Below are positions 41,739 to 59,836 of a stretch of DNA of 64,000 nucleotides, piece by piece. Where the stretch lies: assembly GCA_902589795.1 (NCBI GenBank), contig CACIUJ010000001.1, positions 17,030 to 81,029 of the forward strand. Direction: 5' to 3'. The notes under the pieces were generated by a model that was not told where the DNA came from, made no database searches, and worked only from the letters and a program-made list of their open reading frames with translations. The stretch's first letter is position 1; every line of letters starts with the position of its first letter. The DNA is from an uncultured Pelagibacteraceae bacterium. Lineage in GTDB: Bacteria > Pseudomonadota > Alphaproteobacteria > Pelagibacterales > Pelagibacteraceae. A program made the position numbers and the translations under genes.

Positions 41739-41740
41739 TT

Positions 41741-43841: not shown

Positions 43842-44480
43842 TTATTGAATTGTTTTATTTTCTTCATAATCTAAAAGATTAAAATTAATTATCTCATCAA
43901 ATACTTTAATTTTATTATCCATTTTTCTTGTTTCCATTAATTTTTGTTTTTCTTCAATTGAGAATGGAGAAATCATGCTTACATTACTAATTAATTCATC
44001 CAGATTTAATTTTGACAATTCATTATATTTAACAGGATAATTAATTTTTTTAAAAAAGATTTGTATTTTATTTAATAAATTTTTTTTTTCAGAACTAAAA
44101 GTTTCATCTTTTTTAATTTCCAAATCATCTAAAAATTCAGAGTAGTCAACCTCAAAACTTCTGTACAACTTTTCCTTTTTGAGTTCTTTCTTGATCCTAA
44201 ACCTTGTTAATCCCAAAAGCGTAATTATAAATCTTTTATCTGTTGTTTCGTTAAAGCTTATTATTTTCCCCAAACATCCAACACTATAAACTTCTGGAGA
44301 CATACCCTTACTATTTCTTGGTTGCACCATACCAAACATTCTATTTCCCTTTACACAATCATTAACAAGTTGCAAGTAACGATCTTCAAAAATATTTAAT
44401 GGCAAAATCGTTTTTGGAAAAAATATTGCATTAGATAGAGGGAACACTGGAATTTCTTTTAGTAAATTTTCTTTTTTCAT
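43842..44480 (-). CDS. LON N-terminal (substrate-binding) domain protein
   Basis: 212 aa. 'IPVFPLSNAIFFPKTILPLNIFEDRYLQLV' is the typical start of stand-alone Lon N-domain proteins. 4-nt overlap with the upstream gene. Confidence 0.7.
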   Translation of the reverse strand: MKKENLLKEIPVFPLSNAIFFPKTILPLNIFEDRYLQLVNDCVKGNRMFGMVQPRNSKGMSPEVYSVGCLGKIISFNETTDKRFIITLLGLTRFRIKKELKKEKLYRSFEVDYSEFLDDLEIKKDETFSSEKKNLLNKIQIFFKKINYPVKYNELSKLNLDELISNVSMISPFSIEEKQKLMETRKMDNKIKVFDEIINFNLLDYEENKTIQ

Positions 44481-45517
44481 GGCAATAAAACTAACTTACC
44501 TACATGTTTTTTTAACAAAAAATCTTCCTGTGCTTTTCTAATCTCTTTTAATGGATAGGTTTTTGCAATAAGAGGTTTAATTTCTCCTTTTTCTATATAT
44601 TTTATTAGATTTTTAAATACTTCAACAGGCTGATATGTACAACCATAAAAAGTTAAATCTTTTAAATAAAGTGTACGGACATCTAAGTTAACTAAAGGCC
44701 CCCCGATTGCCCCGGCAGTAGCATATCTACCACCTGGTTTTAAAATTTCTAGCAGTTGACCCCAATTTTCACCTGATACAAGATCTACCACAACATCAAA
44801 TTTATTTTTTCCTAATTCTTTAATTAAATCACTTTCGCGAGAAATAGCTTTATTTGCCCCAATTTTTTTTATTTCATTGATTTTTGATGAAGAACATTGT
44901 GCTGTAATGTGAGCCTTTCTTATTTTTGCTAATTGTATAGCTGCAGAGCCAACTCCTCCCGAAGCACCATTTATAAAAATTTTTTCAGCTCCAAGTTTAA
45001 CTCTATAAAGAAGCCCCTCTGCTGTTGAATAAGAACAAGGTATAGAACCAAGTTCTGCATCGGACCATTTGCAATTTATGGAAAATGTTTCTGAAGATCT
45101 TATTGTTACATATTGTGCGAATCCTCCATTAAGCTCTGAGCCAAGAGTTATCATATTAGGACTCGTAGAATTTTTGGGATCAGTTTGCATTGTACGAGCA
45201 ATAACACGTTCCTTAATTCTTGATTTGTTAACTTTTGATCCTACAGAAACGATAATTCCACAAACATCAGCGCCTTGGATACGAGGAAATTTTAAAGGCA
45301 CACCTGACCAACTGCCCCCAACATTTGATTTATATTTTGAATACCAGGCAGTTCTAGTGTTAATATCGGTATTATTAATTCCTGCAGCAGTTACTTTTAT
45401 TAAAACCTCATCATCTTTTGGAACAGGAACGGGAATATCAGTTTTATATTCTAATTTTTCTAAACCACCATGGCCTGTTAATAAAACTGCATGCATTTTT
45501 TTTGGAATATTTTTCAT
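44477..45517 (-). CDS. Medium-chain dehydrogenase/reductase (quinone-oxidoreductase-like)
   Basis: 346 aa. 'EVLIKVTAAGINNTD', 'GADVCGIIVSVG', NAD(P) fold 'INGASGGVGSAAIQLAK'. No obvious structural-Zn Cys cluster. Confidence 0.8.
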   Translation of the reverse strand: MKNIPKKMHAVLLTGHGGLEKLEYKTDIPVPVPKDDEVLIKVTAAGINNTDINTRTAWYSKYKSNVGGSWSGVPLKFPRIQGADVCGIIVSVGSKVNKSRIKERVIARTMQTDPKNSTSPNMITLGSELNGGFAQYVTIRSSETFSINCKWSDAELGSIPCSYSTAEGLLYRVKLGAEKIFINGASGGVGSAAIQLAKIRKAHITAQCSSSKINEIKKIGANKAISRESDLIKELGKNKFDVVVDLVSGENWGQLLEILKPGGRYATAGAIGGPLVNLDVRTLYLKDLTFYGCTYQPVEVFKNLIKYIEKGEIKPLIAKTYPLKEIRKAQEDFLLKKHVGKLVLLP

Positions 45518-46456
45518 TTATTTTCTTATTCTATTCTCGTATTTTTTTCTCATTTTTAAAAGGTTTACCAAATATTCATCACGGATATTTGATAGAGAAG
45601 TTACCGATTTACCTTTTGATTGCTGTCTTGTTCCTTTTATAACTCTAGAAGATAATTTTTTTGTAAGCTTAGGAGCTTTTAATTTTGTCCAAGGCAATTT
45701 TAGAGCTGGACCAAATTGTTTTAACATGTGTTTCATTCCAGCTTTTCCACCCGCCAGATGAAAAGTAAGAAAAGTACCCATTAAAGAGTATCTCAATCCT
45801 GGACCATCCTCTATAGCTCTGTCCAAATCCTCTGTTTTTGCATAACCCTCATTAACTATATGCAACGCCTCTCTCCACAAAGCTTCTTGTAATCTATCTG
45901 ATAAATAGCCAGGTAATTCTTTTTTTACCATAATCGGGTTCATTGATATTGATTTATAAAAATTTTTTGCTTTATTTAGAAAAAATTTATTTGTTTTTTT
46001 TCCAGGCACTATCTCGATCCCTGGACACAAATATACAGGATTGAAAGGATGACCTATCATTGTTCTAGAAGGATTTTTACATTTTGAGTAAATTTTTGTA
46101 GGTAATAATCCTGAAGAGCTAGAGGAAATAATAGCATTTGGTTTTGAAAATTTTCCAATAGCACTTATTAATTTTGTTTTTAGATTATAATTTTCTGTTA
46201 CACATTCTTGAATAAAATCTGCAGTTTTTACAGCTTCTTCAATCGTAGAAACATATTTTAAATTTTTAAAATTAGGTTTATTTTTATTGAATAATTTTTT
46301 TACAAAAGGCCAAGCACGTTTTATTTCAACAATTAATTTTTTTTTTGATTTGATGTCTTTATCAAATGCTACAACTTTTTTATTATGTGCTAAACATCTA
46401 ATAACCCAACCCGTTCCAATAACTCCGGTACCTATAACAGATATTTTTTTAATCAT
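45518..46456 (-). CDS. 3-hydroxyacyl-CoA dehydrogenase family protein, L-carnitine dehydrogenase / lambda-crystallin-like
   Basis: 312 aa. 'ISVIGTGVIGTGWVIRCL', the Rossmann motif typical of the carnitine/gulonate 3-dehydrogenase subgroup. 'GHPFNPVYL', 'PGYLSDRLQEALWREALH'. Confidence 0.75.
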   Translation of the reverse strand: MIKKISVIGTGVIGTGWVIRCLAHNKKVVAFDKDIKSKKKLIVEIKRAWPFVKKLFNKNKPNFKNLKYVSTIEEAVKTADFIQECVTENYNLKTKLISAIGKFSKPNAIISSSSSGLLPTKIYSKCKNPSRTMIGHPFNPVYLCPGIEIVPGKKTNKFFLNKAKNFYKSISMNPIMVKKELPGYLSDRLQEALWREALHIVNEGYAKTEDLDRAIEDGPGLRYSLMGTFLTFHLAGGKAGMKHMLKQFGPALKLPWTKLKAPKLTKKLSSRVIKGTRQQSKGKSVTSLSNIRDEYLVNLLKMRKKYENRIRK

Positions 46457-47308
46457 TTAATCTGCCAAACCATCAGACCTAGGTTTGTTTCTTTCGATGT
46501 GAATTGGCAACACTTTTCCATATATTGCTTTAGAATGTTCTGGAGTATTCACTCTCCAAGGATCAAGAACGTAAGCTGGTATACAAAGATATCTAGGACG
46601 ACTTCCTTCTATTTTTGTGACACGGTGAAGAGTAAAACGTCCTTTAAATATTTGAAGATCACCTGGTTCTAATTTTAATTGACGAACTCTACTGCGGTCT
46701 CCATCAAGCACTTTTTTAACTTCATCTAATTTTTCATTTCCGGGTTCACGTATATTTGGACAATACTCAAATATTCCGCCTTTCTCAGGTTTTTGTATCA
46801 TAAAACTTAATGTAAATTCGCAGCTATCGAAATGCCAAGGAAGAACACCATCTGGTTTCATCACGTTATAAGCATGGCAAGCCAAAGGATCAGCCCATCG
46901 GTAAATTGGTGATATTCCAAGACAAGCTGAGACAAAATTTAAAAGTTCATCTTGTTCATAAAGAAATTTCATCTCCGAATCTTTTGGAAAAACATCGGAG
47001 TTTAAGTAACCATTATAACGATCCATAAATATTCTTTTTGGATGATTTTTTGGTAATGAAGGGTCGTCTTTTGAATATAAATATGCGTTTATACTTTCCT
47101 TAGACATATAAACTTCATCAAGTTGTTTTTCTAGTTCTGTATTCATTATTTTTAAAGATTTGGGTAAAATAAAATTAGGAATAGTAGCACAACTAAATTG
47201 GTCTAAATCACTTTTACATTTCTTTATTAATTCTTTTATTAATGGAGAATTTAAATCCTGTATTGGATATTTTTTAAGATCAACGATGGTCTCTAATCTA
47301 TTATTCAT
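46457..47308 (-). CDS. Putative Fe(II)/2-oxoglutarate-dependent oxygenase (hydroxylase-type HxD facial triad)
   Basis: 283 aa. 'VLPWHFDSCEF' (H-x-D), distal 'RFTLHRVTKI' (His) and a following Arg in 'GSRPRY'. The jelly-roll-like spacing fits. The subfamily is not assignable. Confidence 0.6.
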   Translation of the reverse strand: MNNRLETIVDLKKYPIQDLNSPLIKELIKKCKSDLDQFSCATIPNFILPKSLKIMNTELEKQLDEVYMSKESINAYLYSKDDPSLPKNHPKRIFMDRYNGYLNSDVFPKDSEMKFLYEQDELLNFVSACLGISPIYRWADPLACHAYNVMKPDGVLPWHFDSCEFTLSFMIQKPEKGGIFEYCPNIREPGNEKLDEVKKVLDGDRSRVRQLKLEPGDLQIFKGRFTLHRVTKIEGSRPRYLCIPAYVLDPWRVNTPEHSKAIYGKVLPIHIERNKPRSDGLAD

Positions 47309-47313
47309 TTTAA

Positions 47314-48549
47314 TTATAAATCCTCTAAAGGATGATGGGACATTAACTCAAGTCCATTTTCGCCAACTAAATATTGTTGTTCTAATTTTACTCCTTCTTT
47401 ACCTCCCACTTTTCCAATATAAGTCTCAACTGTAATAGTCATATTTTTTTCAAAATAACCTTCCCTTTGACCCCCGTCAGTTGGATATCTTATCATTGGC
47501 CACTCATCACAAAGACCTATTCCATGAACCATGCATGAATACCTATTTCCATAATATTCCTCTGGAAGTTTCCAAGACTTTTCAGTGAATTCTTTAAAAG
47601 ACACTCCATGTTTAATTAATCTAGAGTTGTGATTGATATGCTCGATTGCCATTAAGTATAATTTTTTTTGTCCATCATTAAACTTATGGCCTTCAACAAA
47701 AGCCCTAGATATATCAGCGCAATATCCATAAGGACCTACCATATCGGTATCAAAAGATACCAATTCTCCACTTTGAATAATTTTATTGGTACTTTCTTGC
47801 ATCCATGGATTTGTTCTTTCTCCAGAAGATAAAATTCTACATTCAATCCATTCACCGCCATATTCAATATTAGTTTTGTGTAAGATTGACCAAAGTTCAT
47901 CTTCTGTCATTCCTGCTTTTAATTCTTCTCTCATTTTATTAACTCCTATTTCTGCAACATCGATAGCAGCTTTCATACATTTTAATTCTTCAGGAGACTT
48001 AATAACTCTTGCCTGCTCAACGATTGATTTCGCGTCTACTACTTCTATGCCCGACTTATTCAAAGCAGTTACTGCTGGACCGTTAATTACATCAATGGCT
48101 ATTTTTTTACTTTTAAAATATGCTTTTGATAAATCTTTTACTTCATTAATCCATTTTTCTAATTGAACTCCAGCTTGGTCGCCGTTACTAAAGTAATCCC
48201 AAGTTATAGCTGGCCTTATCTCATTTATTAAATTCAAATGGCTAGATAATTTTTCACAGTTAAAATATTCATAAAGAACTATAGGACCGTTAATTGGTAT
48301 AAAACAGTAACGAGTTAAATTATGCATGTTATAGATACTCATATTAGTTGTATCTAATGCATATCTAATATTAACAGGGTCAAATAATATACAGGCTTCA
48401 AGATTATTTTTTTCTAATTCTTTTTTAATTCTATCTAGCCTGTAAGATCTAAGCTTATCAAAATTTATTTCATCTTCTCTTAATCTTTTTTTCGTTACAA
48501 AATTTTGTTTTGGTTTTGTGTCTGGGGTAATTTTTCTATTAAATCTCAT
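47314..48549 (-). CDS. M24-family metallohydrolase with creatinase-type N-domain (prolidase / ectoine-hydrolase / DddP-like)
   Basis: 411 aa. Pita-bread-fold ligand pattern appears complete: 'SFDTDMVGPYGYCADISR' (D, D), 'MVHGIGL' (H), 'ITVETY' (E), 'VKLEQQ' (E). Confidence 0.8.
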   Translation of the reverse strand: MRFNRKITPDTKPKQNFVTKKRLREDEINFDKLRSYRLDRIKKELEKNNLEACILFDPVNIRYALDTTNMSIYNMHNLTRYCFIPINGPIVLYEYFNCEKLSSHLNLINEIRPAITWDYFSNGDQAGVQLEKWINEVKDLSKAYFKSKKIAIDVINGPAVTALNKSGIEVVDAKSIVEQARVIKSPEELKCMKAAIDVAEIGVNKMREELKAGMTEDELWSILHKTNIEYGGEWIECRILSSGERTNPWMQESTNKIIQSGELVSFDTDMVGPYGYCADISRAFVEGHKFNDGQKKLYLMAIEHINHNSRLIKHGVSFKEFTEKSWKLPEEYYGNRYSCMVHGIGLCDEWPMIRYPTDGGQREGYFEKNMTITVETYIGKVGGKEGVKLEQQYLVGENGLELMSHHPLEDL

Positions 48550-48550
48550 A

Positions 48551-49747
48551 TTAGACCAAATTTGTAGCTACCCATTTATGAAAATGATGAGTCGGATTAT
48601 CCATAACTGGTGAAAAGTTTCCACCATTATAAGAAGGAGAATTTCTTCCTTTCTGCATACCTTCTATAATGTGAACATCTTCTGATTGAACGTCATGCCA
48701 AAGTTTTAAATTTTGTCTTCTTAAGTTTTTAAATTTTTTTGAATTTGCAGCTTCGTAACCCACGTAATAAATTTCCATGTGCTCTATAGTAAGTTCATGA
48801 TTTATTGGTTCTAACCAATATGCATAATAGTGGTCTTTGTGAATACCCATCATTACATTGGGGAAAAGAGCAACATATTCAGCTATATTTATTTTATTTT
48901 TTGGCCAATTAGGAAAGCACGGAAATTTATTTTTACCTTTTAATCTAGGATTATAAACAACAGTTCCTTGTCCAGCAAATCTATTTGGCAAGCCTTGTAT
49001 ATGATAATGATCACTAATTTTAGAATAACTATTTAAACCTGGGTGCACCCAAGGCAAATGATAACTTTCACAATAATTTTCAATCGCAAATTTCCAATTG
49101 CACTTTGCTTTTAATTTAAAATAACCTAAGTCTTTTGAGTGTTTAATTAGTTTTTGATCTTTTTCTGGCCAAAATTTAGACCAACGATCTTTTAATGGCT
49201 TAATGTATTTCTCAAATGACACCTCATTATTAGAAATATTTACAACAATCATATCCAGCCAAACATAGGAACGAACTTCTTTAAGACCGCTTGAAGATTT
49301 ATCAAAATCTTTTGATTCGTGTTTATTCATGCCTCCTAAATGAGGAGTAGAAACTAGTTCACCATTTAAACTATAAGACCAGGAATGGTAGGGACATCTT
49401 ATTATATTTTTTATAGAGCATTTTTTTTGTAAAATTTTATATCCTCTATGACTGCAAACATTATGATAAACTTTGACTTGATTTTTTTTATTTCTTAATA
49501 AAATTAAAGGAATTCCTAATAAATCAAAAGGCCTTGCATCTCCAGGTTTGGGTATTGAACTAGCAACGCCTATCACAACCCACTTGTCTTCAAAAAGTTT
49601 TTTTCTTTCTATTTTAGTATACTCAATACTATTATAACATTCATTAGGAAGACCATGTGCTTCAGTTATTGGTTTATTTACCACATCTAGCTTTTCTTTT
49701 TTTACGATGTCGTAGATACTCATGCTTCCATTAAGTTTCGGGACCAT
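48551..49747 (-). CDS. Rieske [2Fe-2S] non-heme-iron oxygenase, alpha/oxygenase component (GbcA/CntA/Stc2-like)
   Basis: 398 aa. Rieske motif 'CSHRGYKILQKKCSIKNIIRCPYHSW' (CxH...CxxH). Mononuclear-iron motif 'ENYCESYHLPWVHP' (H-x4-H). No reductase or ferredoxin gene nearby. Confidence 0.85.
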   Translation of the reverse strand: MVPKLNGSMSIYDIVKKEKLDVVNKPITEAHGLPNECYNSIEYTKIERKKLFEDKWVVIGVASSIPKPGDARPFDLLGIPLILLRNKKNQVKVYHNVCSHRGYKILQKKCSIKNIIRCPYHSWSYSLNGELVSTPHLGGMNKHESKDFDKSSSGLKEVRSYVWLDMIVVNISNNEVSFEKYIKPLKDRWSKFWPEKDQKLIKHSKDLGYFKLKAKCNWKFAIENYCESYHLPWVHPGLNSYSKISDHYHIQGLPNRFAGQGTVVYNPRLKGKNKFPCFPNWPKNKINIAEYVALFPNVMMGIHKDHYYAYWLEPINHELTIEHMEIYYVGYEAANSKKFKNLRRQNLKLWHDVQSEDVHIIEGMQKGRNSPSYNGGNFSPVMDNPTHHFHKWVATNLV

Positions 49748-49840
49748 TTAAAAATCCTAGCATTTCAGTAAAAATTGGCAATAGATATCAATTGAAATTA
49801 CTAGACAGGACTAGGGGTCCGCTGGTATATCCCGTTGATT

Positions 49841-50569
49841 ATGAATTTCTCAATAGAAATTACTATGAAGACTGACCTTTCGGAATTACCTAAAGTTAAG
49901 GATGTCTATATTACTATGCTGCCCGGTAATGATTACAGGCAGGTGGCAAATAAGGCTAGTGAGCTAGTTAAATCTGGGTTTAACCCAGTCCCCCATTTTC
50001 CTGCTCGTTCTATTAAGAATAAGGCTGAATTAAAAGACTACGTAAGCAGATGCAAGGACGGAGGAGTGAAACAGGCTCTAATAATAGGGGGTAGTGCGCA
50101 ACCCATTGGAGATTTTCACTGTTCGTTGCAGTTATTAGAGACAAAATTATTTGAGGGGTGGAAGATAGGAATCGCTGGACATCCAGATGGGTCCCCTGAT
50201 ATATCCGATCAAGATTTAGAAAAAGCTATGATCGATAAGAAACCTTACGCAGACTATATAGTTACACAATGGTTATTAGATTATAATCCGATAGCTAAAT
50301 TTATTTCTAAACAAACTTTACCAGTTCATGTAGGAATTACTGGGCCTCTAAAAATAAGCAGTTTATTAAAGTTTGCAAATATTGTTGGGGCAAAAAATTC
50401 AATTAATTTTCTTAAATCTAATGTTACTAAAGCGGTAGATTTATTAAAACCTAAGGATCCAAATGAAATGATTGAAAAACTCAAAGGATCAACCGAGAAT
50501 TTTCACATTTATACTTTTGGTGGTCTTAAGGAAACTAATAAATGGTTAACGGAGAATAATTATGCCTAA
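49841..50569 (+). CDS. Short methylenetetrahydrofolate-reductase-like (MetF-fold) protein
   Basis: The ORF track starts at TTG 49835; the ATG at 49841 ('MNFSIEIT') is preferred. MTHFR-like landmarks by eye: 'FSIE', 'VYITMLPG', 'VPHFPARS', 'IGIAGHPDGSP', 'ADYIVTQWLLD', 'VHVGITGP'. About 240 aa is shorter than typical MetF, and the 'RGD' acid appears to be replaced ('IGGS'). Confidence 0.6.
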   Translation: MNFSIEITMKTDLSELPKVKDVYITMLPGNDYRQVANKASELVKSGFNPVPHFPARSIKNKAELKDYVSRCKDGGVKQALIIGGSAQPIGDFHCSLQLLETKLFEGWKIGIAGHPDGSPDISDQDLEKAMIDKKPYADYIVTQWLLDYNPIAKFISKQTLPVHVGITGPLKISSLLKFANIVGAKNSINFLKSNVTKAVDLLKPKDPNEMIEKLKGSTENFHIYTFGGLKETNKWLTENNYA

Positions 50570-51986
50570 AAAGAAAAAAGCTAAAAAAAGTAAAGTTAAA
50601 AAAATTAAATCAGTTTCATTTAAACCTGAAAAGGTTAATTACGATAAAGTTAAACACACAACATCTGTTGATCAATCAGATAGACATGTACCTTACAATT
50701 TAAGACAGAGTGGACCAACAAAAGTAGAATTATTAATTTCAACAAGAGTAAGAAAGTCACCCTATTGGCATTTATCAATGAAAGCTGGATGCTGGAGAGC
50801 TACAGTTTATAATCGCGTTTATCATCCCAGAGGTTATGTAAGACCTGAAAAAGGTGGGGCTATGGTTGAGTATGCAGCAATTAAAAATCATGTAACGATG
50901 TGGAATGTAGCTGTAGAGAGACAAATTCGTGTGAAAGGAGCAGATGCTGAAAGATTTACAGATTATGTAATAACGCGTGATGCAACAAAAATTTCAACAA
51001 TGAGAGGTCGTTACGTTATTCTTTGTAATAATAAGGGAGGAGTATTAAACGATCCAGTTTTATTAAGAGTAGCTGATGATGAATTTTGGTTCAGTTTGTC
51101 TGATTCTGATATTGGAATGTACTTACAAGGTGTGAATGCTGATAAAAAATTCAATGTAGAAATAGATGAAATAGATGCATGCCCAGTACAAATACAGGGC
51201 CCTAAATCAAAAGCATTATTAAATGATTTAATTGGAGATCAAGTTGATCTAGATAACATGCCTTTTTATGGTTTGGCAGAAGCTAAAGTGGGAGGCAGAA
51301 GCTGTGTGATTTCTCAATCAGGATTTTCTGGTGAAGCTGGGTATGAAATTTATCTTCGTGATGCAACTTTATATGCAGAAGATATGTGGAATGCTGTTCT
51401 AAAAGCTGGAAAGAAACATAAACTAATGGTTATTGCTCCTGCACACCATAGAAGAATTCAAGCAGGAATTTTGTCTTGGGGCCAAGATATGGATAATGAA
51501 CATAACCCTTTCCAATGTAACTTGGGTTACCAAGTTTCTTTGTCCGGCAAAGGTGAGTGGAATAAAAAAACAGATTATGTAGGAAAAGAAGCTTTAGAAA
51601 AAATGAAAGAGGAAATTAAGCAAGGAAAAAAACCTTATAAACTTCAACTCGTAGGTATGGAACTAGGAGGAAAGCCAATAGAAGAATATGCTCCAGATTT
51701 TTGGCTAATTTCGAATGCAAAAGGAGGAAAGCCAATAGGTTATATTACTTCTCCTTGGTACCACCCAGAAAAGAAAAAAAACATTGCAATGGGATATGTT
51801 CCATATGAAGGACATCTAAGCGCTAAAGGGTTTCCAATTGGAAATTTTGGTAAAAAATACAAGGTTCATTTGCCAAAGAAATATTCCAGTAAACCAGTTG
51901 ATGCGGTAGTTGTTCCTATACCTTTCACGCAGTCATTCAATGCAAATACTCGTGAAGCTGAAGTATTGGCTACTTTAAATAAATAA
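50562..51986 (+). CDS. GcvT-family THF-dependent methyltransferase/demethylase (DmdA/LigM-like) with Lys-rich N-terminal extension
   Basis: 474 aa with an 8-nt overlap with the MTHFR-like gene. Aminomethyltransferase fold: 'MWNVAVERQIRVKGADAERF', 'NNKGGVLNDPVLLRVADDEFWFSLSDSD', 'VQIQGPKS', 'SGFSGEAGYEIYL'. N-terminus 'MPKKKKAKKSKVKKIKS'. Confidence 0.75.
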   Translation: MPKKKKAKKSKVKKIKSVSFKPEKVNYDKVKHTTSVDQSDRHVPYNLRQSGPTKVELLISTRVRKSPYWHLSMKAGCWRATVYNRVYHPRGYVRPEKGGAMVEYAAIKNHVTMWNVAVERQIRVKGADAERFTDYVITRDATKISTMRGRYVILCNNKGGVLNDPVLLRVADDEFWFSLSDSDIGMYLQGVNADKKFNVEIDEIDACPVQIQGPKSKALLNDLIGDQVDLDNMPFYGLAEAKVGGRSCVISQSGFSGEAGYEIYLRDATLYAEDMWNAVLKAGKKHKLMVIAPAHHRRIQAGILSWGQDMDNEHNPFQCNLGYQVSLSGKGEWNKKTDYVGKEALEKMKEEIKQGKKPYKLQLVGMELGGKPIEEYAPDFWLISNAKGGKPIGYITSPWYHPEKKKNIAMGYVPYEGHLSAKGFPIGNFGKKYKVHLPKKYSSKPVDAVVVPIPFTQSFNANTREAEVLATLNK

Positions 51987-54011: not shown

Positions 54012-54067
54012 AAAAATCTAACTTGACGTATCATAAGCTTATATTTAGAAATTTACCTTATTTATTT

Positions 54068-56500
54068 ATGAAATCAAAAACAAAAGTGGTTGTCATTGGA
54101 GGTGGGGCGGTTGGCACAAGTATGCTTTACCACCTTGCAAAAAAAGGTTGGTCCGACGTTGTTCTAGTTGAAAGAAAAGAGCTAACATCTGGATCTACCT
54201 GGCATGCTGCTGGATTACTACCACTTTTTAATATGAGTTATTCAGTAGGCCAACTGCATAAATATGCAGTAAATCTTTACAAAACTTTAGAAAAAGAAAC
54301 AGGAAAAAATGTTGGTTTCAGCGTTGTTTCCAATATTAGATTAGCAAGCACAAAAGATAGAATGGATGAGTACCATCAATATGCAGGAGTTGCTCAAACC
54401 ATTGGAGTTGATTATAAATTCCTGACTCCTGATCAAGTAAAAGAAATCTGGCCATTGTGCAATACTTCAGATTTAATTGGTGCTATTCAACATCCAGAAG
54501 ATGGATATATACAGCCTGCTGATTTAACACAAGCTCTTGCGACAGGCGCAAGAAATAGAGGAGCTGAAATTTATAGAAATACAACAGTTATTGGAATCAA
54601 ACAAACAAAGAATGGATGGGTGGTAGAAACTGACAAAGGTTCGATTGAATGTGAACATGTAGTTTCGTGCTCAGGAAATTTTGCACGACAAACTGGTAAA
54701 ATGGTTGGATTAGAAATTCCAGTTATACCTGTAGAACATCAATATATTGTAACTGAACCTCATCCAGAAATTGTGAAAAGAAAGAAAGAAGGTAAACCAG
54801 AAATGGGAGTACTTAGAGATAGCGACAGCAGATGGTACATGAGAGAGGAAGCCGGAGGTTTTATACTAGGACCTTATGAAGATGGAGCACCTTGTTGTTA
54901 TGTAGATGGACCGTCAAAAGATTCAGAGTATGAATTATTTCAGGAAGATTTAGAAAGATTAGGCCCTCATATAGAAGGAGCCATTCATCGTGTACCAGCT
55001 TTTGCGGAAGTTGGAGTTAAAAAAGTTTATAATGGAGCAATTTGTTACACACCAGATGGAAACCCAATAGTTGGACCAGCCTGGGGGTTAAAAAATTTTT
55101 GGATTAATGAAGGACATAGTTTTGGAATTACAGCAGCAGGTGGGGCTGGATGGCAACTTGCAGAATGGATTATAGATGGAGAACCAACGATTGATATGCT
55201 TGGTGTAGAGCCAAGAAGATATGGAGACTATTGTTCTAAAGCATATTTAAAAGAAAAAAACGAAGAAGCTTATAGAAACGTTTTTGTCATTCATTATCCA
55301 GATGAAGAAAGAGAAGCTGCAAGACCTTTAAGACAAGCTCCATGTTATGACAGAATGAAAAAATTAGGAGCAGTGTTTGGTCAAAAATTTGGATGGGAGA
55401 GACCAAATTTTTTTTCAGTAGATGGAATGGAACAAAAAGATGATTGGTCATTTAGAAGATCTAAATGGTTTAAAGCAGTTGAAAAAGAATGCAAAAATGT
55501 AAAAGAAAATGTAGGTCTTTTAGATATGTCTGCATTTGGGAAATGTAGAATTAAAGGACCTGGGGCAGAAAAATTCCTTGATTATTTGGTTGCTAATAAA
55601 CTTCCAAAAAAAATTGGGAGAGTTAATTTATGTCACGCCCTAAATACCAAGGGAGGTGTGCATTCTGAATTTACAATAATGAAAGAAGCAGAAAATAGTT
55701 ATTATTTAGTTTCTGCAGGAGCCTTTCAAAGGTTAGATCATGATTGGATACAAAAATGGATGCCAACAGACGGTTCAGTTCAATTTGAAAATTTAACAAA
55801 TGCAATGGGTGTGTTAGTGGTTGCGGGCCCAAAAGCAAGAGAACTAATGAAGAAAGTCTCTAAAGATGATTTTTCCAATGAAAATTTTAAATGGTTAAGT
55901 TCTAAAAAAGTAGATATTGGTTATGCTCCGTGCACAGCAATAAGAGTAAACTTTGTAGGAGAGTTAGGATGGGAACTTCATCATCCAATTGAATATCAAA
56001 ATCACATATTCGATAAATTAATAGAACATGGAAAAAATTTTAACCTCAAGCCTTTCGGAATTCGAGCCATGAATAGTTTGAGAGTTGAAAAATCTTATAA
56101 ATTAGTTGGAACAGAGTTATCAATTGAATACTCACCTTATGAATCGGGCTTAGATAGATTTATACATCCAAACAAAGGAAATTTTATTGGTTTAGAATCT
56201 TTAAACAAATGGCGAGAAAAGGGTTTTCAAAATAAATTAGTAACGATGGAAATACATAATATTACTGACGCAGATGTATTGGGAAACAATCCAATTTACG
56301 AAAATGGGAAAGTTGTTGGAAGAGCAACAGGAGGAGATTTTGGCTTTAGATTAAATAAATCAATAGCTTTAGGGATGGTTAAACCAGAGCTTGCGACAAC
56401 AGGGCAAAAATTAAAAATTGATATTCTAGGCAAAATGCACGACGCTACTATTTTGGATGAAAGCCCATATGATCCAGAAAATAAATTATTAAGAGCATAA
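54068..56500 (+). CDS. Sarcosine/dimethylglycine dehydrogenase family flavoprotein (DAO domain plus GcvT THF domain), second paralog
   Basis: The ORF-track start (54023) is a TTG; the ATG at 54068 ('[18 protein letters not shown]') fits the family N-terminus. 'GSTWHAAG', C-terminal '[12 protein letters not shown]'. Immediately upstream of etfBA. Confidence 0.85.
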
Positions 56501-56504
56501 AGAA

Positions 56505-57254
56505 ATGAAAATTTTAGTAGCAGTAAAAAGAGTAATTGATTACAACGTTCAAGTTAGAGTTAAAGAGGATAATACGGGTGTGGTAACCGAAAATGTTAAA
56601 ATGTCCACAAATCCTCCTGACGATAATGCCATTGAGGAAGCTGTCAAAATAAAAGAATCTGGTAAGGCAAAAGAAGTAGTAGCAATTACAATTGGTGAAG
56701 AAAAAGCACAAGAAACAGTAAGAAAAGCTTTAGCCGTAGGAGCAGATAGAGGAATTCATGTCAGGACAGACGGTGTTGTTGAGCCCTTAGCAGTATCAAA
56801 AATTCTTAAAAAAATTGTTGAAAAAGAAAATCCAGATTTGGTTTTTATGGGAAAGCAGGCAATTGACGATGATTGTAACCAGACGGGACAAATGTTAGCT
56901 GCATTATTAAATTGGCCACAAGCAACTTTTGCTTCAAAAATTACAGTCAAAGAAAAATTACTTGAAGTGATAAGAGAGGTTGATGAGGGTTTAGAAACAG
57001 TAGAAGTAAATATTCCTGCAGTAGTTACATGTGATTTAAGATTAAATGAACCCAGGTATGCCTCATTACCAAATATAATGAAAGCAAAGAAAAAGCCTTT
57101 AGAGCAAATTAATTTTTCTGACTTGGGTGTTGATATAAAATCAAAAATAGAACAAATAAAAGTCGAAGATCCACCAAAAAGAAAAGGGGGAATTAAAGTA
57201 TCTAGTGTTGCTGAATTAGTTCAAAAATTAAAAAATGAGGCAAAAGTAATTTAA
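56505..57254 (+). CDS. etfB: Electron transfer flavoprotein beta subunit
   Basis: 249 aa. '[15 protein letters not shown]', '[22 protein letters not shown]' and '[16 protein letters not shown]' are typical EtfB motifs. Confidence 0.95.
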
Positions 57255-58207
57255 TGTCGGTATTATTAATAGCGGAGCACAACAACAAAGAGGTAAAACC
57301 GTTTACTTTAAATGCTATAACAGCAGCTACTCAAATAGATAAAGATCTTCATATTTTAGTTATAGGAAACAAAGCGGACTCAGTAGCAAAATCTTTATCA
57401 GAAGTTCCTAATGTAAAAAAAATTATTCATATAGACAATGAAATTTATGAAAATTATTTGGCTGAAAACTTTACTCCCATAATTGTGAAATATGCTGAAA
57501 GTTATTCACACATTCTTTGTTCAGCTAATACGTTTGGAAAAAATTTAATGCCCAGAGTTTCCGCTCTTTTAGATATATCTCAGGTTAGTGATATAATAAA
57601 AGTGATATCTTCGGATACTTTTTTAAGACCAATTTATGCAGGAAATGCTTTGGCAACCATTAAAAGTACAGATAAAAAAAAATGTATAACAATAAGACCT
57701 ACGTCTTTTGATCCCGCTCCTACTTCAGGTGGATCAGCAGAAATAGTTAAAGGAGAAGCTAAAGAATCTTTTCAAAAAATAAAGTTTATTAAAAGAGAAG
57801 AAGTTAAATCAGATAGACCCGAGCTCGGGACAGCAAGAGTTGTTATCTCTGGCGGTAGAGGAATGCAAAAAGCAGAAAATTTTAAACTAATCACAGCTAT
57901 AGCTGATAAATTAAATGCAGCAGTTGGTGCCTCAAGAGCAGCTGTGGACGCTGGATATATAAGTAACGATCATCAAGTGGGACAAACAGGAAAAGTTGTT
58001 GTTCCAGATTTGTATATTGCAGTAGGAATATCAGGTGCTATACAACATTTAGCTGGAATGAAAGAAAGTAAAGTAATAGTAGCAATAAATAAAGATGGAG
58101 AAGCTCCCATTTTTAGTATAGCTGACTATGGCTTAGAGGCAGATCTATTCGATGCATTGCCTAAATTTTTAGAAGAGTTAAATAAACTCAACACTATTCA
58201 AAAATAA
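57254..58207 (+). CDS. etfA: Electron transfer flavoprotein alpha subunit
   Basis: 317 aa. FAD-binding signature 'PDLYIAVGISGAIQHLAGMKESKVIVAINKD'. TAATG overlap with etfB. Confidence 0.95.
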   Translation: MSVLLIAEHNNKEVKPFTLNAITAATQIDKDLHILVIGNKADSVAKSLSEVPNVKKIIHIDNEIYENYLAENFTPIIVKYAESYSHILCSANTFGKNLMPRVSALLDISQVSDIIKVISSDTFLRPIYAGNALATIKSTDKKKCITIRPTSFDPAPTSGGSAEIVKGEAKESFQKIKFIKREEVKSDRPELGTARVVISGGRGMQKAENFKLITAIADKLNAAVGASRAAVDAGYISNDHQVGQTGKVVVPDLYIAVGISGAIQHLAGMKESKVIVAINKDGEAPIFSIADYGLEADLFDALPKFLEELNKLNTIQK

Positions 58208-58228
58208 AAGGTTTGATATAGTCCTCAT

Positions 58229-59836
58229 ATGCCAAGAGAAGTAATGGGATATGATGTAGTAATTGTTGGAGCAGGTCCAGCAGGACTATCGACAGCTATT
58301 AAACTAAAACAAATCGATACTAACATTAGTGTATGCATATTAGAAAAGGGATCTGAAGTTGGGGCACATATTTTAAGTGGCAATGTTTTTGAAACAAAAG
58401 CACTTGATGAACTTTTACCAAAATGGAAAGAAGAGGGAGCTCCTGTAAAAAATAAAGTTTCTAAAGAAAGATTTTTATTTTTGGGAAAAAATAATTCTCT
58501 AAACTGGCCAACTTGGCTTTTACCTTCAGTGCAAAAAAATCATAAGAATTATATAATTAGCCTGGCAAACCTCTGCCGCTGGTTAGCTGAACAAGCAGAA
58601 AAATTAGGGGTGGAGATATTTCCAGGTTTTCCAGCGAGCGAAGTACTTTACAAAGAAGATGGTTCAATTAAAGGTGTGGCCACTTTAGATATGGGTTTAG
58701 ATAAAGACGGAAACAAAAAAGAAGGATATCAAGAAGGTATGGAGTTACATGCAAAGGTCACAGTTTTTGCAGAGGGTTGCAGAGGCCATTTAGGTAAGCA
58801 GCTAATCAAAAAATATGAATTAGATAAGGGAAAAAATCCCCAACAATATGGAATTGGTTTTAAAGAAATTTGGGAAGTTAACGAAACTCAACATGAAGAA
58901 GGACTAGTCATGCACACAGCTGGATGGCCACTTGATAACAAAACCTACGGGGGTAGCTTTGTTTATCATGCAGAAAATAAACAAATTTATATAGGTTATG
59001 TTATTGGTCTTGATTATAAAAATCCCTATCTATCCCCCTTTGATGAATTTCAAAGATTTAAAACGCATAAAGTTATTAAAAAAATGCTGGAAGGTGGAAA
59101 AAGGATAGCATTTGGTGCAAGAGCTTTAATAGAGGGAGGGATTCAGAGTCTTCCAAAAATGTATATGCCCGGTGGTTTATTAATTGGTTGTGATGCTGGA
59201 ACTTTAAATATGCCAAAAATTAAAGGATCTCACACAGCCATGAAAAGCGGAATTATCGCGGCCGAAACTATAATAGAAAATTTAAAAAATAAAAAAGATT
59301 TATCAATTTATGAAGAAAAATTTAAGACAAGCTGGGCTTATAAGGAATTGTATGCTGCCAGAAATGTAAAACCCAGTTTTAGCTGGGGCTTATTATTAGG
59401 AATTATTTATACTGGTTTAGATCAAATATTATTTAGAGGAAAATTGCCATTTACTTTAAAACATAAACATGCAGACCATGAGTCTCTAAAACCTGCAAAA
59501 GAAATGGAAAAAATTAATTATCCAAAGCCAGATTGTAAAATTACCTTTGATAAAACTAGTTCAGTTTTTTTAACTGGGACAAATCATGTTGACAATCAAC
59601 CAGTCCATTTAAAATTAAAAGATTCTAATTTACCAATTAATTTTACATTAAAAGAATATGATGAACCAGCACAAAGATATTGTCCTGTTGGTGTGTACGA
59701 AATTCAGAATGAAAAATTTGTTATTAATTCACAAAATTGCATTCATTGTAAAACTTGTGATATTAAAGAACCATCCCAAAATATTACATGGGTAGTTCCA
59801 GAGGGTGGTGGCGGTCCAAAATATGGAAACATGTAA
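58229..59836 (+). CDS. Electron-transfer-flavoprotein:ubiquinone oxidoreductase
   Basis: 535 aa. 'YDVVIVGAGPAGLSTAIKL', and a C-terminal 4Fe-4S region 'YCPVGVYE...CIHCKTCDIKEP'. Confidence 0.9.
   Translation: MPREVMGYDVVIVGAGPAGLSTAIKLKQIDTNISVCILEKGSEVGAHILSGNVFETKALDELLPKWKEEGAPVKNKVSKERFLFLGKNNSLNWPTWLLPSVQKNHKNYIISLANLCRWLAEQAEKLGVEIFPGFPASEVLYKEDGSIKGVATLDMGLDKDGNKKEGYQEGMELHAKVTVFAEGCRGHLGKQLIKKYELDKGKNPQQYGIGFKEIWEVNETQHEEGLVMHTAGWPLDNKTYGGSFVYHAENKQIYIGYVIGLDYKNPYLSPFDEFQRFKTHKVIKKMLEGGKRIAFGARALIEGGIQSLPKMYMPGGLLIGCDAGTLNMPKIKGSHTAMKSGIIAAETIIENLKNKKDLSIYEEKFKTSWAYKELYAARNVKPSFSWGLLLGIIYTGLDQILFRGKLPFTLKHKHADHESLKPAKEMEKINYPKPDCKITFDKTSSVFLTGTNHVDNQPVHLKLKDSNLPINFTLKEYDEPAQRYCPVGVYEIQNEKFVINSQNCIHCKTCDIKEPSQNITWVVPEGGGGPKYGNM

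What the first reader, a model, noticed from the sequence alone, without database searches (positions are those of the whole stretch)
49835..51986. Short MetF-like protein translationally coupled to a DmdA/LigM-like THF methyltransferase: a self-contained methyl-THF module of unknown substrate
GcvT-fold demethylases of the DmdA and LigM type transfer an intact methyl group to THF, producing 5-methyl-THF. This differs from the oxidative dehydrogenases, which produce 5,10-methylene-THF. Such demethylases need an MTHFR running in reverse to feed the C1 pool, and ligM-metF linkage is the known precedent in lignin-derived aromatic O-demethylation. Here a roughly 240-aa MTHFR-fold gene overlaps a 474-aa GcvT-family gene by 8 nt. 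The 474-aa protein's core blocks ('NNKGGVLNDPVLLRVADDEFWFSLSDSD') resemble the DmdA subgroup. It also has a roughly 60-aa Lys-rich N-terminal extension and a longer C-terminus. The pair is divergent from the Rieske cluster across an 87-bp spacer. The substrate (DMSP-like sulfonium, methoxy-aromatic or N-methyl compound) is open. The MetF-like protein is unusually short, and the acidic residue of the 'RGD' motif seems to be missing.
Basis: partly seen in the sequence, partly recalled or inferred. Interest (0 to 1): 0.65.

Follow-up and report, generated by a model that had tools for sequence, protein, structure and literature searches.

The report
SAR11 methyl-folate demethylase and oxidase pair
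This is the conserved SAR11 gene pair (a DmdA-like methyltransferase plus a short MetF-like methyl-folate oxidase) that was already pointed out in 2011 as a methyl-group-harvesting module of unknown substrate; gene neighbourhoods in other bacteria now point to glycine betaine as the likely substrate.

Summary
The pair is adjacent in all 80 Pelagibacteraceae species loci fetched. Start and stop overlap in all 79 measured (8 nt in 67).

Sun et al. 2011 described this pair as SAR11_1264 (metF) and SAR11_1265 (DmdA-like aminomethyltransferase, unknown substrate) and proposed methyl-THF oxidation. The MetF-like protein matches the 'type 4' methyl-THF-oxidising MTHFR of Sphingobium SYK-6 (published 2025). 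It differs from it: the catalytic Asp is Ser or Gly in all 76 SAR11 orthologues scored, and Pro268 is Thr.

The 474-aa protein is neither GcvT nor true DmdA. It scores 240.8 bits against a DmdA cutoff of 410, is 30% identical to P. ubique DmdA, and sits in a separate clade with 99% bootstrap support.

My addition is a substrate hypothesis. In other lineages the pair lies in betA-betB-BCCT or betI operons, or beside dimethylglycine dehydrogenase, sarcosine oxidase and ETF genes. Glycine betaine is therefore the leading candidate, from gene context only.

The parts
49748..49840 (.). Intergenic spacer between the divergent Rieske gene and the MetF-like gene. It is 87 bp if the TTG at 49835 is the start and 93 bp to the ATG at 49841.
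   Evidence: No Rfam family hit. Promoter-like matches are not above the shuffled expectation.
49841..50569 (+). MetF-like gene, 242 aa: a compact MTHFR-fold protein related to the type 4 (CH3-THF-oxidising) MTHFR of Sphingobium SYK-6. It is the probable orthologue of SAR11_1264.
   Evidence: - Sequence match to PDB 7xg9: 107.9 bits, E=4.8e-30.
- AF2 model pLDDT 90, and Foldseek top hits 7xg9/7xlf with TM-score 0.83-0.85.
- Pfam MTHFR scores only 19.5 bits, below the gathering cutoff of 24.
- All but one of the 120 closest homologues are 242 aa.
- Residues kept: E6, T25, L27, P28, Q143, F178, Y224, F226, G227, G228, L229.
- Residues not kept, in S6 numbering: Asp107 to S85, Arg78 to S57, Pro268 to T225.
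50562..50569 (+). The 8-nt stop/start overlap ATGCCTAA, consistent with translational coupling. A GGAG lies 8 nt upstream of the ATG.
   Evidence: The overlap is 8 nt in 67 of 79 SAR11 species, 17 nt in 11 and 41 nt in 1.
50562..51986 (+). DmdA-like GcvT-family aminomethyltransferase, 474 aa. It is the probable orthologue of SAR11_1265 and a predicted THF-dependent methyltransferase.
   Evidence: - Pfam GCV_T 139 bits plus GCV_T_C.
- NCBIfam DmdA model 240.8 bits against a cutoff of 410, and GcvT 158 bits against a cutoff of 300.
- Best PDB sequence match is 3tfh, P. ubique DmdA: 154.8 bits, 30% identity.
- It forms its own clade with 99% bootstrap support.
50562..50627 (+). Hypervariable Lys-rich N-terminal head (residues 1-22, of which 11 are Lys), encoded by an A-rich tract.
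   Evidence: The distance from Met1 to the VDQSDR motif ranges from 15 to 58 aa across SAR11 species.
50655..50744 (+). N-terminal segment (residues 32-61, 'H..SVDQSDR.VPYNLRQSGPTKVE.LIST') that is absent from DmdA. It is conserved in SAR11; the motif from SVDQSDR onward is also present in its closest high-GC relatives.
   Evidence: Alignments: V36 to G51, except residues 42-43, are invariant among 30 SAR11 sequences. The motif from SVDQSDR onward is shared with L092, L094 and L095.
54023..59836 (+). Context rather than part of the pair: dimethylglycine/sarcosine dehydrogenase-like gene (825 aa), ETF beta, ETF alpha and ETF-ubiquinone oxidoreductase.
   Evidence: The same gene set recurs next to the pair or its relatives in L082, L099, L100 and L115.
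44477..49747 (-). Context rather than part of the pair: a variable island encoding a Zn-ADH, a carnitine-dehydrogenase-like protein, a HalD-like Fe/2OG oxygenase, a DddP-like M24/creatinase-N protein and a GbcA-like Rieske oxygenase.
   Evidence: every protein scores below its equivalog cutoff. The island is present upstream of the pair in only about 20 of the 80 SAR11 loci.

Best explanation
The two genes form a conserved, translationally coupled SAR11 operon, the orthologue of SAR11_1264/SAR11_1265. It harvests a methyl group onto tetrahydrofolate and feeds it into C1 oxidation.

Step 1 (inferred from homology). The 474-aa DmdA-like protein transfers an intact methyl group from an activated 'onium' donor to N5 of THF. 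The products are 5-methyl-THF and the demethylated compound.

Step 2 (inferred from homology and from SAR11 physiology). The 242-aa MetF-like flavoprotein oxidises 5-methyl-THF to 5,10-methylene-THF. The electrons go to an acceptor other than NAD(P)+. The product then passes through FolD, Fhs and formate dehydrogenase to CO2.

SAR11 lacks MetH, MetE and the split methionine synthase. Methyl-THF therefore has no biosynthetic sink there, and this enzyme must run oxidatively. It probably also serves DmdA.

Glycine betaine is the most likely methyl donor (glycine betaine + THF -> dimethylglycine + CH3-THF). I put that at about 0.45. It rests on gene context in other lineages, not on biochemistry.
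For: Fold and family of both proteins.

Linkage: the pair is adjacent in 80 of 80 SAR11 species loci, and start and stop overlap in all 79 measured.

Expression: both genes are co-regulated, with mRNA falling 5-10 fold together, and both are detected as proteins in HTCC1062 (PMC5069961).

Direction of the MetF-like reaction:
- S6MTHFR oxidises CH3-THF and hardly reacts with NADH. Its Leu48-Pro49 block NADH binding (PMC11868366).
- The equivalent L27 is invariant and P28 is kept in 74 of 76 SAR11 orthologues.
- SAR11 lacks MetE, MetH and MtgBCDE (PMC12478193).

The same MTHFR-like + AMT pairing recurs outside SAR11, in L082, L117, L115, L097, L098, L099, L106 and L107.

Glycine betaine context:
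- L082 has betA-betB-BCCT-MetF-like-AMT. BetA and BetB score above their NCBIfam equivalog cutoffs, and ETF and a DMGDH-like gene lie downstream.
- L117 has BetI-MTHFR-like-AMT. The BetI model scores 138.7 bits against a cutoff of 118.
- L115 has a BetI::MTHFR-like ORF followed by the AMT, divergent from ETFba and ETF-QO.
- L113 has AMT-PhyH-soxBDAG.
- L100 has AMT-DMGDH, and L094 has DMGDH divergent from the AMT.
- In the sister clade, L099 has DMGDH-ETFba-FeS-AMT-MTHFR-like-GntR, and L096 has AMT-GntR-BetA.
- In SAR11 the pair lies next to OpuAC-ProW or DMGDH-ETF in subsets of species.
Against: - There are no biochemical data for either protein.
- The catalytic Asp (E. coli Asp120, S6 Asp107), which binds the pterin, is Ser or Gly in all 76 SAR11 orthologues scored. 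Pro268 and Arg78, described as conserved in type 4 MTHFRs, are Thr and Ser. Flavin binding and activity are therefore not assured.
- SAR11 already has a BHMT-type enzyme credited with glycine betaine demethylation (PMC3160333, PMC12478193).
- About half of the non-SAR11 loci examined carry no betaine-related neighbours (L090, L091, L092, L095, L102, L103, L114, L116).
- In the commonest SAR11 arrangement the upstream neighbour is an ABC transporter of unknown specificity.
- The SAR11 protein is only 50-57% identical to the relatives that sit in bet or betI operons or beside DMGDH, sox and ETF genes (L082 itself is 57%).
- I could not compare the window directly with the HTCC1062 sequences.
Confidence: 0.72

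Rival explanations
1. The module works as described, but the methyl donor is a different onium compound. Candidates include a second DMSP-type sulfonium (DMSP itself, dimethylsulfonioacetate, S-methylmethionine, gonyol) and another quaternary amine (choline, carnitine or gamma-butyrobetaine, proline betaine, homarine, trigonelline).
For: - The closest characterised relative is DmdA.
- The adjacent variable island encodes carnitine-dehydrogenase-like, GbcA-like Rieske and DddP-like proteins.
- In more than 21 SAR11 species an ABC transporter of unknown specificity lies directly upstream.
- Half of the non-SAR11 contexts are uninformative.
Against: - The Trp reported as DMSP-specific in DmdA ('W171' in PMC7487153) is Phe here.
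- SAR11 already carries a dedicated DmdA.
- In other lineages the recurrent neighbours belong specifically to the choline/betaine -> dimethylglycine -> sarcosine route and its regulator BetI.
Confidence: 0.3
2. This is the proposal of Sun et al. 2011: the AMT removes the second methyl group of the DMSP pathway, converting methylmercaptopropionate (MMPA) to mercaptopropionate.
For: The AMT is a paralogue of DmdA with similar metagenomic abundance, and it is adjacent to metF (PMC3160333).
Against: - A thioether is not an activated methyl donor in the way a sulfonium or quaternary ammonium is (general chemistry, my own knowledge).
- No dmdB/C/D-type genes lie next to the pair in SAR11 or in the other B-clade loci examined.
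- The neighbours found instead belong to betaine, dimethylglycine and sarcosine catabolism.
Confidence: 0.06
3. The AMT does not transfer methyl groups. It would act as a GcvT/Tdm-like formaldehyde or iminium-capturing partner that makes 5,10-methylene-THF for an oxidative demethylase such as the neighbouring Rieske oxygenase. The MetF-like protein would then run reductively or have another role.
For: - GcvT-fold domains of DMGDH, SoxA and Tdm do exactly this.
- A GbcA-like Rieske gene is divergently adjacent in this window.
Against: - The Rieske cluster is absent from about 60 of the 80 SAR11 loci, whereas the pair is constant.
- The constant partner is an MTHFR-like protein, which is only needed if methyl-THF is the product.
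- SAR11 has no known use for reductively made methyl-THF (PMC12478193).
- The protein groups with DmdA at 100% bootstrap support, apart from Tdm, DMGDH, SoxA and GcvT.
Confidence: 0.07
4. The MetF-like protein is catalytically impaired or not an oxidoreductase because it lacks the essential Asp. It might instead be a methyl-THF-binding or channelling partner of the AMT.
For: - Ser or Gly replaces Asp107/Asp120 in all 76 SAR11 orthologues scored.
- The protein is 242 aa, against 288 aa for S6MTHFR.
- Pfam MTHFR and both NCBIfam MTHFR models score below their cutoffs.
Against: - Glu6, Gln143, Phe178, His52 and the barrel are all conserved, and the model is confident.
- Gly or Ser at this position is common across the wider family, including full-length members, which suggests compensation rather than decay.
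- SAR11 needs some enzyme to recycle the methyl-THF made by DmdA, and Sun et al. list this gene as the only metF.
Confidence: 0.12

Closest known systems
SAR11_1264 (metF) / SAR11_1265 (gcvT-like AMT) of 'Ca. Pelagibacter ubique' HTCC1062 (Sun et al. 2011, PMC3160333; Smith et al. 2016, PMC5069961)
   Same: Same lineage (Pelagibacteraceae) and the same two-gene arrangement. The same description applies: a DmdA-like AMT of unknown substrate next to a metF homologue thought to oxidise methyl-THF. It is a core gene pair at about one copy per genome.
   Different: None is expected, since this window almost certainly holds the orthologues from another SAR11 genome. Identity to the HTCC1062 sequences could not be computed here. 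The window copy carries a 22-aa Lys-rich head that some SAR11 lineages lack.
ligM-metF-ligH operon of Sphingobium lignivorans SYK-6; S6MTHFR, 'type 4 MTHFR' (PMC11868366; PDB 7XG9/7XLF)
   Same: A THF-dependent methyltransferase gene sits next to an MTHFR that runs in reverse. The MetF-like protein here is most similar to S6MTHFR in both sequence and fold. It keeps Glu21, Thr46, Leu48-Pro49, Gln175, Phe215, Tyr267 and Phe269-Gly-Gly-Leu.
   Different: - The partner methyltransferase is DmdA-like, not LigM-like (LigM model 30.8 bits).
- The MTHFR here is 46 aa shorter.
- Asp107 is replaced by Ser, Arg78 by Ser, Pro268 by Thr and Cys219 by Val.
- SYK-6 uses methyl-THF for methionine synthesis, and SAR11 cannot.
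DmdA, DMSP demethylase (EC 2.1.1.269; P. ubique SAR11_0246, PDB 3TFH)
   Same: Same GcvT fold, and the closest characterised relative. It is the mechanistic model: a redox-neutral transfer of a methyl group from an onium donor to THF N5.
   Different: - 30% identity, and a separate clade.
- Below the NCBIfam DmdA cutoff (240.8 bits against 410).
- The DMSP-associated Trp is Phe.
- About 50 extra N-terminal residues and about 30 extra C-terminal residues.
- dmdA is not adjacent to metF in HTCC1062 (SAR11_0246 against SAR11_1264).
MtgBCD + MetF2 (SPO1862) of Ruegeria pomeroyi (Mausz et al. 2025, PMC12478193)
   Same: Glycine betaine demethylation yields methyl-H4F. A dedicated metF paralogue encoded next to the methyltransferase genes is proposed to oxidise it.
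   Different: That system depends on cobalamin (MttB-family MtgB plus a corrinoid protein). This one has no corrinoid component and uses a single GcvT-fold protein. The paper reports no MtgC homologue in Pelagibacteraceae.
CmuAB + MetF of Methylorubrum extorquens CM4, and Dmt + N20MTHFR of Rhizorhabdus dicambivorans (as cited in PMC11868366)
   Same: These are further examples of a methyl-THF-forming demethylase coupled to a type 4 MTHFR.
   Different: They use different methyltransferase families and different substrates (chloromethane, dicamba).

Membership tests
Type 4 (S6MTHFR-type) MTHFR | MTHFR TIM-barrel fold | tested here: met
   The AF2 model has pLDDT 90 and pTM 0.88. The top Foldseek hits are 7xg9/7xlf with TM-score 0.83-0.85, followed by other MTHFRs. 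The sequence match to 7xg9 has E=4.8e-30.
Type 4 (S6MTHFR-type) MTHFR | Four catalytic residues: Glu21, Asp107, Gln175, Phe215 (E. coli Glu28, Asp120, Gln183, Phe223) | tested here: not met
   E6, Q143 and F178 are present and invariant. Asp107 is S85 here, and Ser (42) or Gly (34) across 76 SAR11 species, never Asp.
Type 4 (S6MTHFR-type) MTHFR | Loop beta2-alpha3 Leu48-Pro49, which blocks NADH binding | tested here: met
   The motif is 'TMLPG'. L27 is kept in 76 of 76 and P28 in 74 of 76 SAR11 species.
Type 4 (S6MTHFR-type) MTHFR | Loop beta8-alpha11 Pro268-Phe-Gly-Gly-Leu, and Arg78 | tested here: not met
   The loop reads 'YTFGGL'. Pro268 is Thr in 76 of 76, which is the residue found in type 1/2 MTHFRs. 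Phe-Gly-Gly-Leu is kept. Arg78 is Ser57 in 76 of 76.
Type 4 (S6MTHFR-type) MTHFR | Encoded together with a THF-dependent demethylase | tested here: met
   It overlaps the DmdA-like AMT gene, and the two are adjacent in 80 of 80 SAR11 loci.
Type 4 (S6MTHFR-type) MTHFR | Binds FAD, oxidises CH3-THF, and shows no NADH activity | not testable with these tools
   This needs purified protein.
DmdA (DMSP demethylase) | Score at or above the curated cutoff of the NCBIfam equivalog model NF009133 (410 bits) | tested here: not met
   The score is 240.8 bits. Relatives in other lineages score 264-335 bits.
DmdA (DMSP demethylase) | Groups inside the DmdA clade | tested here: not met
   In the NJ tree the SAR11 protein and its relatives form their own clade (99% bootstrap). 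P. ubique DmdA falls outside this clade and its sister clade, which group together at 79% bootstrap. Identity to DmdA is 30%. Only one true DmdA sequence was available to me.
DmdA (DMSP demethylase) | The Trp reported as the key residue for DMSP interaction ('W171' in PMC7487153) | tested here: not met
   DmdA reads 'SGWSKQGGYEVY' and the window protein reads 'SGFSGEAGYEIY'. Equating 'W171' with this Trp is my own inference.
DmdA (DMSP demethylase) | GcvT fold with conserved folate-binding residues | tested here: met
   Pfam GCV_T plus GCV_T_C. The GYE.Y motif is conserved.
GcvT (glycine cleavage T protein) | Score at or above the cutoffs of the NCBIfam GcvT models | tested here: not met
   Scores are 158.3 (cutoff 300), 131.6 (cutoff 235.85) and 122.6 (cutoff 459). 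In the tree the protein lies apart from B. subtilis GcvT.
LigM / DesA aryl O-demethylases | Score at or above the cutoffs of the NCBIfam equivalog models | tested here: not met
   LigM scores 30.8 (cutoff 580) and DesA 38.5 (cutoff 800). The PDB LigM match is 21.5 bits.
SAR11_1264/1265 orthologous pair | A metF homologue directly upstream of a DmdA-like AMT in a Pelagibacteraceae genome, present as a core gene pair | tested here: met
   A direct sequence comparison with HTCC1062 was not possible, because that genome was not among the loci returned.

The most novel reading that the evidence does not exclude
The SAR11_1265-type protein and its wider clade would be a previously unrecognised, cobalamin-independent glycine betaine:tetrahydrofolate N-methyltransferase (glycine betaine + THF -> dimethylglycine + 5-methyl-THF). 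It would work with an Asp-less type 4 MTHFR that oxidises the methyl-THF, possibly passing electrons to ETF. That would be a fourth route of betaine demethylation, beside BHMT, GbcAB and MtgBCD. It would also be the catabolic entry point for betaine methyl groups in the ocean's most abundant heterotroph. DmdA would then be a sulfonium-specialised offshoot of an older betaine demethylase family.
Probability: 0.4. Interest if true: 0.78.

Novelty: new member of a known kind. Interest (0 to 1): 0.45.

Why it matters
SAR11 is the most abundant heterotroph in the sea and gains energy by oxidising methyl groups of algal osmolytes.

This pair belongs to its core genome, and the MetF-like gene is the only metF that Sun et al. 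list for it. It is therefore the gate through which DmdA-derived methyl groups, and those of the unknown substrate, reach the C1 oxidation pathway. The substrate of the AMT has been an open question since 2011.

If the substrate is glycine betaine, models of marine betaine turnover would need revision. Those models credit SAR11 with BHMT only, a route limited by homocysteine supply.

There is also a practical point. These proteins hit the DmdA model best but score below its cutoff, so loose thresholds in metagenomic surveys could count them as dmdA.

For enzymology, the natural loss of the 'essential' Asp in a whole clade of MTHFR-like proteins would be informative.

Tried and rejected
- **Structure of the 474-aa protein.** AF2 on an alignment of 30 close SAR11 homologues gave pLDDT 49.8, which is unusable. 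I therefore have no structural analysis of the N-terminal segment or the substrate pocket.
- **DmdA structure paper.** Schuller et al. 2012 is not held. The DMSP-binding residues come only second-hand, from PMC7487153.
- **Riboswitch or RNA element in the spacer.** There is no Rfam hit anywhere in the window.
- **Promoter and terminator scan.** Nothing rose above the shuffled expectation.
- **Other short MTHFR-like proteins.** P0396, P0250 and P0256 (33-45% identity) are not next to any AMT. Shortness alone does not mark the coupled type.
- **Rieske cluster as part of the module.** Rejected, because it is a variable island.
- **LigM-like reading of the AMT.** Rejected.
- **Covariation between T8 and S85 of the MetF-like protein.** The association is weak (30/12/12/20) and probably phylogenetic.
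- **Spacer in the 452-aa forms.** I first thought that the 452-aa forms of the AMT leave a spacer after the MetF-like gene. One search showed this was wrong.
- **Literature search.** I found no paper describing a GcvT-type, THF-dependent betaine demethylase.


Full report
**What is in the sequence**

The window has about 32% G+C. It carries the SAR11 osmolyte and C1 island. In order, it encodes:
- soxB, soxA and soxG;
- a homocysteine S-methyltransferase (BHMT-like) next to an 805-aa DMGDH/SARDH-type dehydrogenase;
- OpuAC and ProW;
- an aldehyde dehydrogenase;
- an 825-aa DMGDH-type dehydrogenase followed by ETF beta, ETF alpha and ETF-QO.

Inside this island, ORF A (49835/49841-50569, + strand) and ORF B (50562-51986, + strand) overlap by the 8 nt ATGCCTAA. 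A GGAG lies 8 nt upstream of the second start. All but one of the 120 closest homologues of A are 242 aa, so the ATG at 49841 is the start. B has no alternative in-frame start before its conserved core.

**Is the pairing more than chance?**

Yes. A scan of one genome per GTDB species returned 405 relatives of B, and the best 80 are all Pelagibacteraceae. A lies directly upstream of B in every one of those 80 loci. Among 79 loci with both ends readable, the stop/start overlap is 8 nt in 67, 17 nt in 11 and 41 nt in 1.

The flanks vary. The divergent Rieske / DddP-like / HalD-like / carnitine-DH-like island seen in this window is present in only about 20 of the 80 loci. Other SAR11 genomes have OpuAC-ProW, or an ABC transporter of unknown specificity, directly upstream. 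The module is the pair alone.

**Protein A**

Pfam and NCBIfam MTHFR models hit only below their cutoffs. The sequence nevertheless matches PDB 7XG9 at 107.9 bits, E=4.8e-30. An AF2 model built on a 41-sequence alignment is confident (pLDDT 90). It is a TIM barrel whose best structural matches are 7XG9/7XLF (TM-score 0.83-0.85), ahead of all other MTHFRs.

7XG9 is S6MTHFR of Sphingobium SYK-6, encoded in the ligM-metF-ligH operon. Yu et al. 2025 (PMC11868366) showed three things about it. It oxidises CH3-THF. It barely reacts with NADH, because Leu48-Pro49 and the Pro268-Phe269 loop block the NADH site. It defines a 'type 4' MTHFR family that accompanies THF-dependent demethylases.

I mapped its residues through the alignment:

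| S6MTHFR residue | Residue in protein A | Conservation in SAR11 (76 species) |
|---|---|---|
| Glu21 | E6 | kept |
| Thr23 | T8 | Thr or Gly |
| Thr46 | T25 | kept |
| Leu48-Pro49 | L27-P28 | kept |
| Arg78 | S57 | Ser in 76 of 76 |
| Asp107 (E. coli Asp120) | S85 | Ser in 42, Gly in 34, never Asp |
| Gln175 | Q143 | kept |
| Phe215 | F178 | kept |
| Tyr267 | Y224 | kept |
| Pro268 | T225 | Thr in 76 of 76 |
| Phe-Gly-Gly-Leu | F226-L229 | kept |

Gly or Ser at this position is also frequent among more distant, full-length relatives.

A exhaustive HMMER search of 1.84 billion cluster representatives found 1738 relatives at E<=1e-3. Only a handful of these are compact forms of about 240 aa. 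Three such compact forms from other lineages are not next to any AMT.

**Protein B**

B has the Pfam domains GCV_T and GCV_T_C. Its best NCBIfam model is DmdA, at 240.8 bits against a cutoff of 410. The GcvT models are also below their cutoffs, and LigM and DesA are negligible. The best solved structure by sequence is P. ubique DmdA, 3TFH, at 154.8 bits.

I built a neighbour-joining tree with 300 bootstrap replicates. The results were:
- the SAR11 proteins and their relatives from other lineages form one clade (99%);
- that clade is sister to a second uncharacterised clade of mostly high-GC organisms (79%);
- both clades together group with P. ubique DmdA (100%);
- all of these lie apart from the GcvT-fold domains of Tdm, DMGDH and SoxA, and from GcvT itself.

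Identity between B and DmdA is 30%. The Trp that Hernandez et al. 2020 call the key DMSP-interacting residue is Phe in B.

The N-terminus has two parts. The first is a hypervariable Lys-rich head: Met1 to the VDQSDR motif spans 15-58 aa across species, and the head is 22 aa here. The second is a segment of about 30 aa, conserved in SAR11 and absent from DmdA.

**Prior knowledge**

Sun et al. 2011 (PMC3160333) described exactly this pair in HTCC1062:
- SAR11_1265 is a gcvT-like AMT of unknown substrate.
- It is 'closely related to' dmdA.
- They cited Methylobacterium CM4 MetF as a methyl-THF oxidiser.
- They speculated about MMPA demethylation.
- The gene occurs at about one copy per recA in ocean metagenomes.

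Smith et al. 2016 (PMC5069961) found both proteins expressed and both mRNAs falling together 5-10 fold in stationary phase. No other paper in the searchable library names these loci. I found none that assigns a substrate.

Mausz et al. [quoted passage not shown] Methyl-THF then has no biosynthetic use in these cells. The only metF that Sun et al. list must therefore work oxidatively, for DmdA as well as for B. This last step is my inference.

**What is the substrate?**

I looked at relatives outside SAR11.
- **L082.** The closest compact homologue of A (52% identity) lies on a 1.9-Mb contig in the order betA-betB-BCCT-A-B, all on one strand. ETF alpha/beta and a DMGDH-type gene lie just downstream. 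BetA and BetB pass their NCBIfam equivalog cutoffs.
- **L117.** Among relatives of that AMT, this locus has BetI-MTHFR-like-AMT. The BetI model scores 138.7 bits against a cutoff of 118.
- **L115.** This locus has one 509-aa ORF fusing BetI to an MTHFR-like domain, followed by the AMT. It is divergent from ETF beta/alpha and ETF-QO.
- **L113.** This locus has AMT-PhyH-soxBDAG.
- **Metagenome loci of the same clade.** L100 has AMT-DMGDH, and L094 has DMGDH divergent from the AMT.
- **Sister clade.** L099 has DMGDH-ETFb-ETFa-FeS/CCG protein-AMT-MTHFR-like-GntR. L096 has AMT-GntR-BetA. Four short contigs have AMT-MTHFR-like.

About half of the 16 informative non-SAR11 loci carry such neighbours, and the rest are uninformative. 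In none of the betaine-linked loci is another betaine demethylase (GbcAB, BHMT, MtgB) visible in the flanks. Dimethylglycine, the expected product, is the substrate of the recurrent neighbour DMGDH.

I therefore rank glycine betaine first, at about 0.4-0.45. This is association only. SAR11 has a BHMT-type enzyme as well, and the SAR11 protein is only 50-57% identical to the relatives found in these betaine-linked contexts (57% to the L082 protein).

**Verdict**

The finding as written repeats what has been in the literature since 2011, so it is not a discovery.

This analysis adds three things. It places the MetF-like protein as an Asp-less, Pro268-less variant of the newly defined type 4 MTHFRs. 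It shows that the AMT belongs to a widespread clade distinct from DmdA. It gives a specific, testable substrate hypothesis that links the pair to the choline/betaine regulon.

Noticed in passing
window 50562-50627; L001-L080 at the start of the AMT gene: The AMT begins with a Lys-rich head encoded by an A-rich tract. Its length differs widely among SAR11 species. Met1 to the VDQSDR motif spans 15-58 aa, from 'MSNEFDY...' to 'MPKKKKKKKVSSKKRKPKKVAKVKSKKVSKP...'. The ATG(C/T)CTAA overlap with the upstream stop codon is conserved throughout. Whether the head has a function or is merely tolerated slippage is unknown.
   Followed up: partly
L115:6432-7961: In a sponge-symbiont-type contig (the AMT is named as from 'Candidatus Persebacteraceae bacterium Df01'), a single 509-aa ORF joins a BetI-type repressor (N-terminal part, above the NCBIfam BetI cutoff) to an MTHFR-like domain. 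It lies directly upstream of the AMT. This could be a real fusion or an assembly or frame artefact.
   Followed up: partly
window 44477-49747 (- strand): This is a five-gene island encoding a Zn-ADH, a carnitine-dehydrogenase-like protein (355.8 bits, cutoff 414), a HalD-like Fe/2OG oxygenase, an M24 protein with a Creatinase_N domain whose best hit is DddP (360.9 bits, cutoff 600), and a GbcA-like Rieske oxygenase (120 bits, cutoff 670). It occurs at this position in only about a quarter of SAR11 species. It looks like a catabolic cassette for an unidentified osmolyte.
   Followed up: partly
window 39097-42355; also L-loci such as L053: This is a trio of genes: an M19 membrane-dipeptidase-like protein, a 556-aa protein with no Pfam or NCBIfam hit, and DUF3726. 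In many other SAR11 genomes it sits convergently just downstream of the MetF-like/AMT pair. Its function is unknown.
   Followed up: no
L016:1486-5210: In the commonest SAR11 arrangement (21 or more of the 80 loci) an ABC transporter lies directly upstream of the MetF-like gene on the same strand, 13 nt away. It comprises an SBP_bac_1/6/8-type binding protein, a 538-aa fused permease and an ATPase. It gives only weak hits to 2-aminoethylphosphonate transporter models. Its ligand could be a clue to the AMT's substrate.
   Followed up: partly
L115:2950-6262, L082:8982-10708, L099:6327-9936, window 56505-59836: ETF alpha/beta, with ETF-QO or an FeS/CCG protein, recurs next to the pair. In L115 this happens with no DMGDH gene within 8 kb. 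ETF might therefore be the unknown physiological electron acceptor of this class of MTHFR. This is speculative.
   Followed up: no
L097, L098, L099, L106, L107 (MTHFR-like genes downstream of sister-clade AMTs): The MTHFR-like partners of the sister clade keep the catalytic Asp. They lack the Leu-Pro and Pro-Phe-Gly-Gly-Leu motifs said to define type 4 MTHFRs. Demethylase-coupled MTHFRs are therefore more varied than the published motif set suggests.
   Followed up: partly
window 1-64000: No Rfam family reaches its gathering score anywhere in the 64-kb window. This includes the SAM, glycine and THF riboswitch families.
   Followed up: yes
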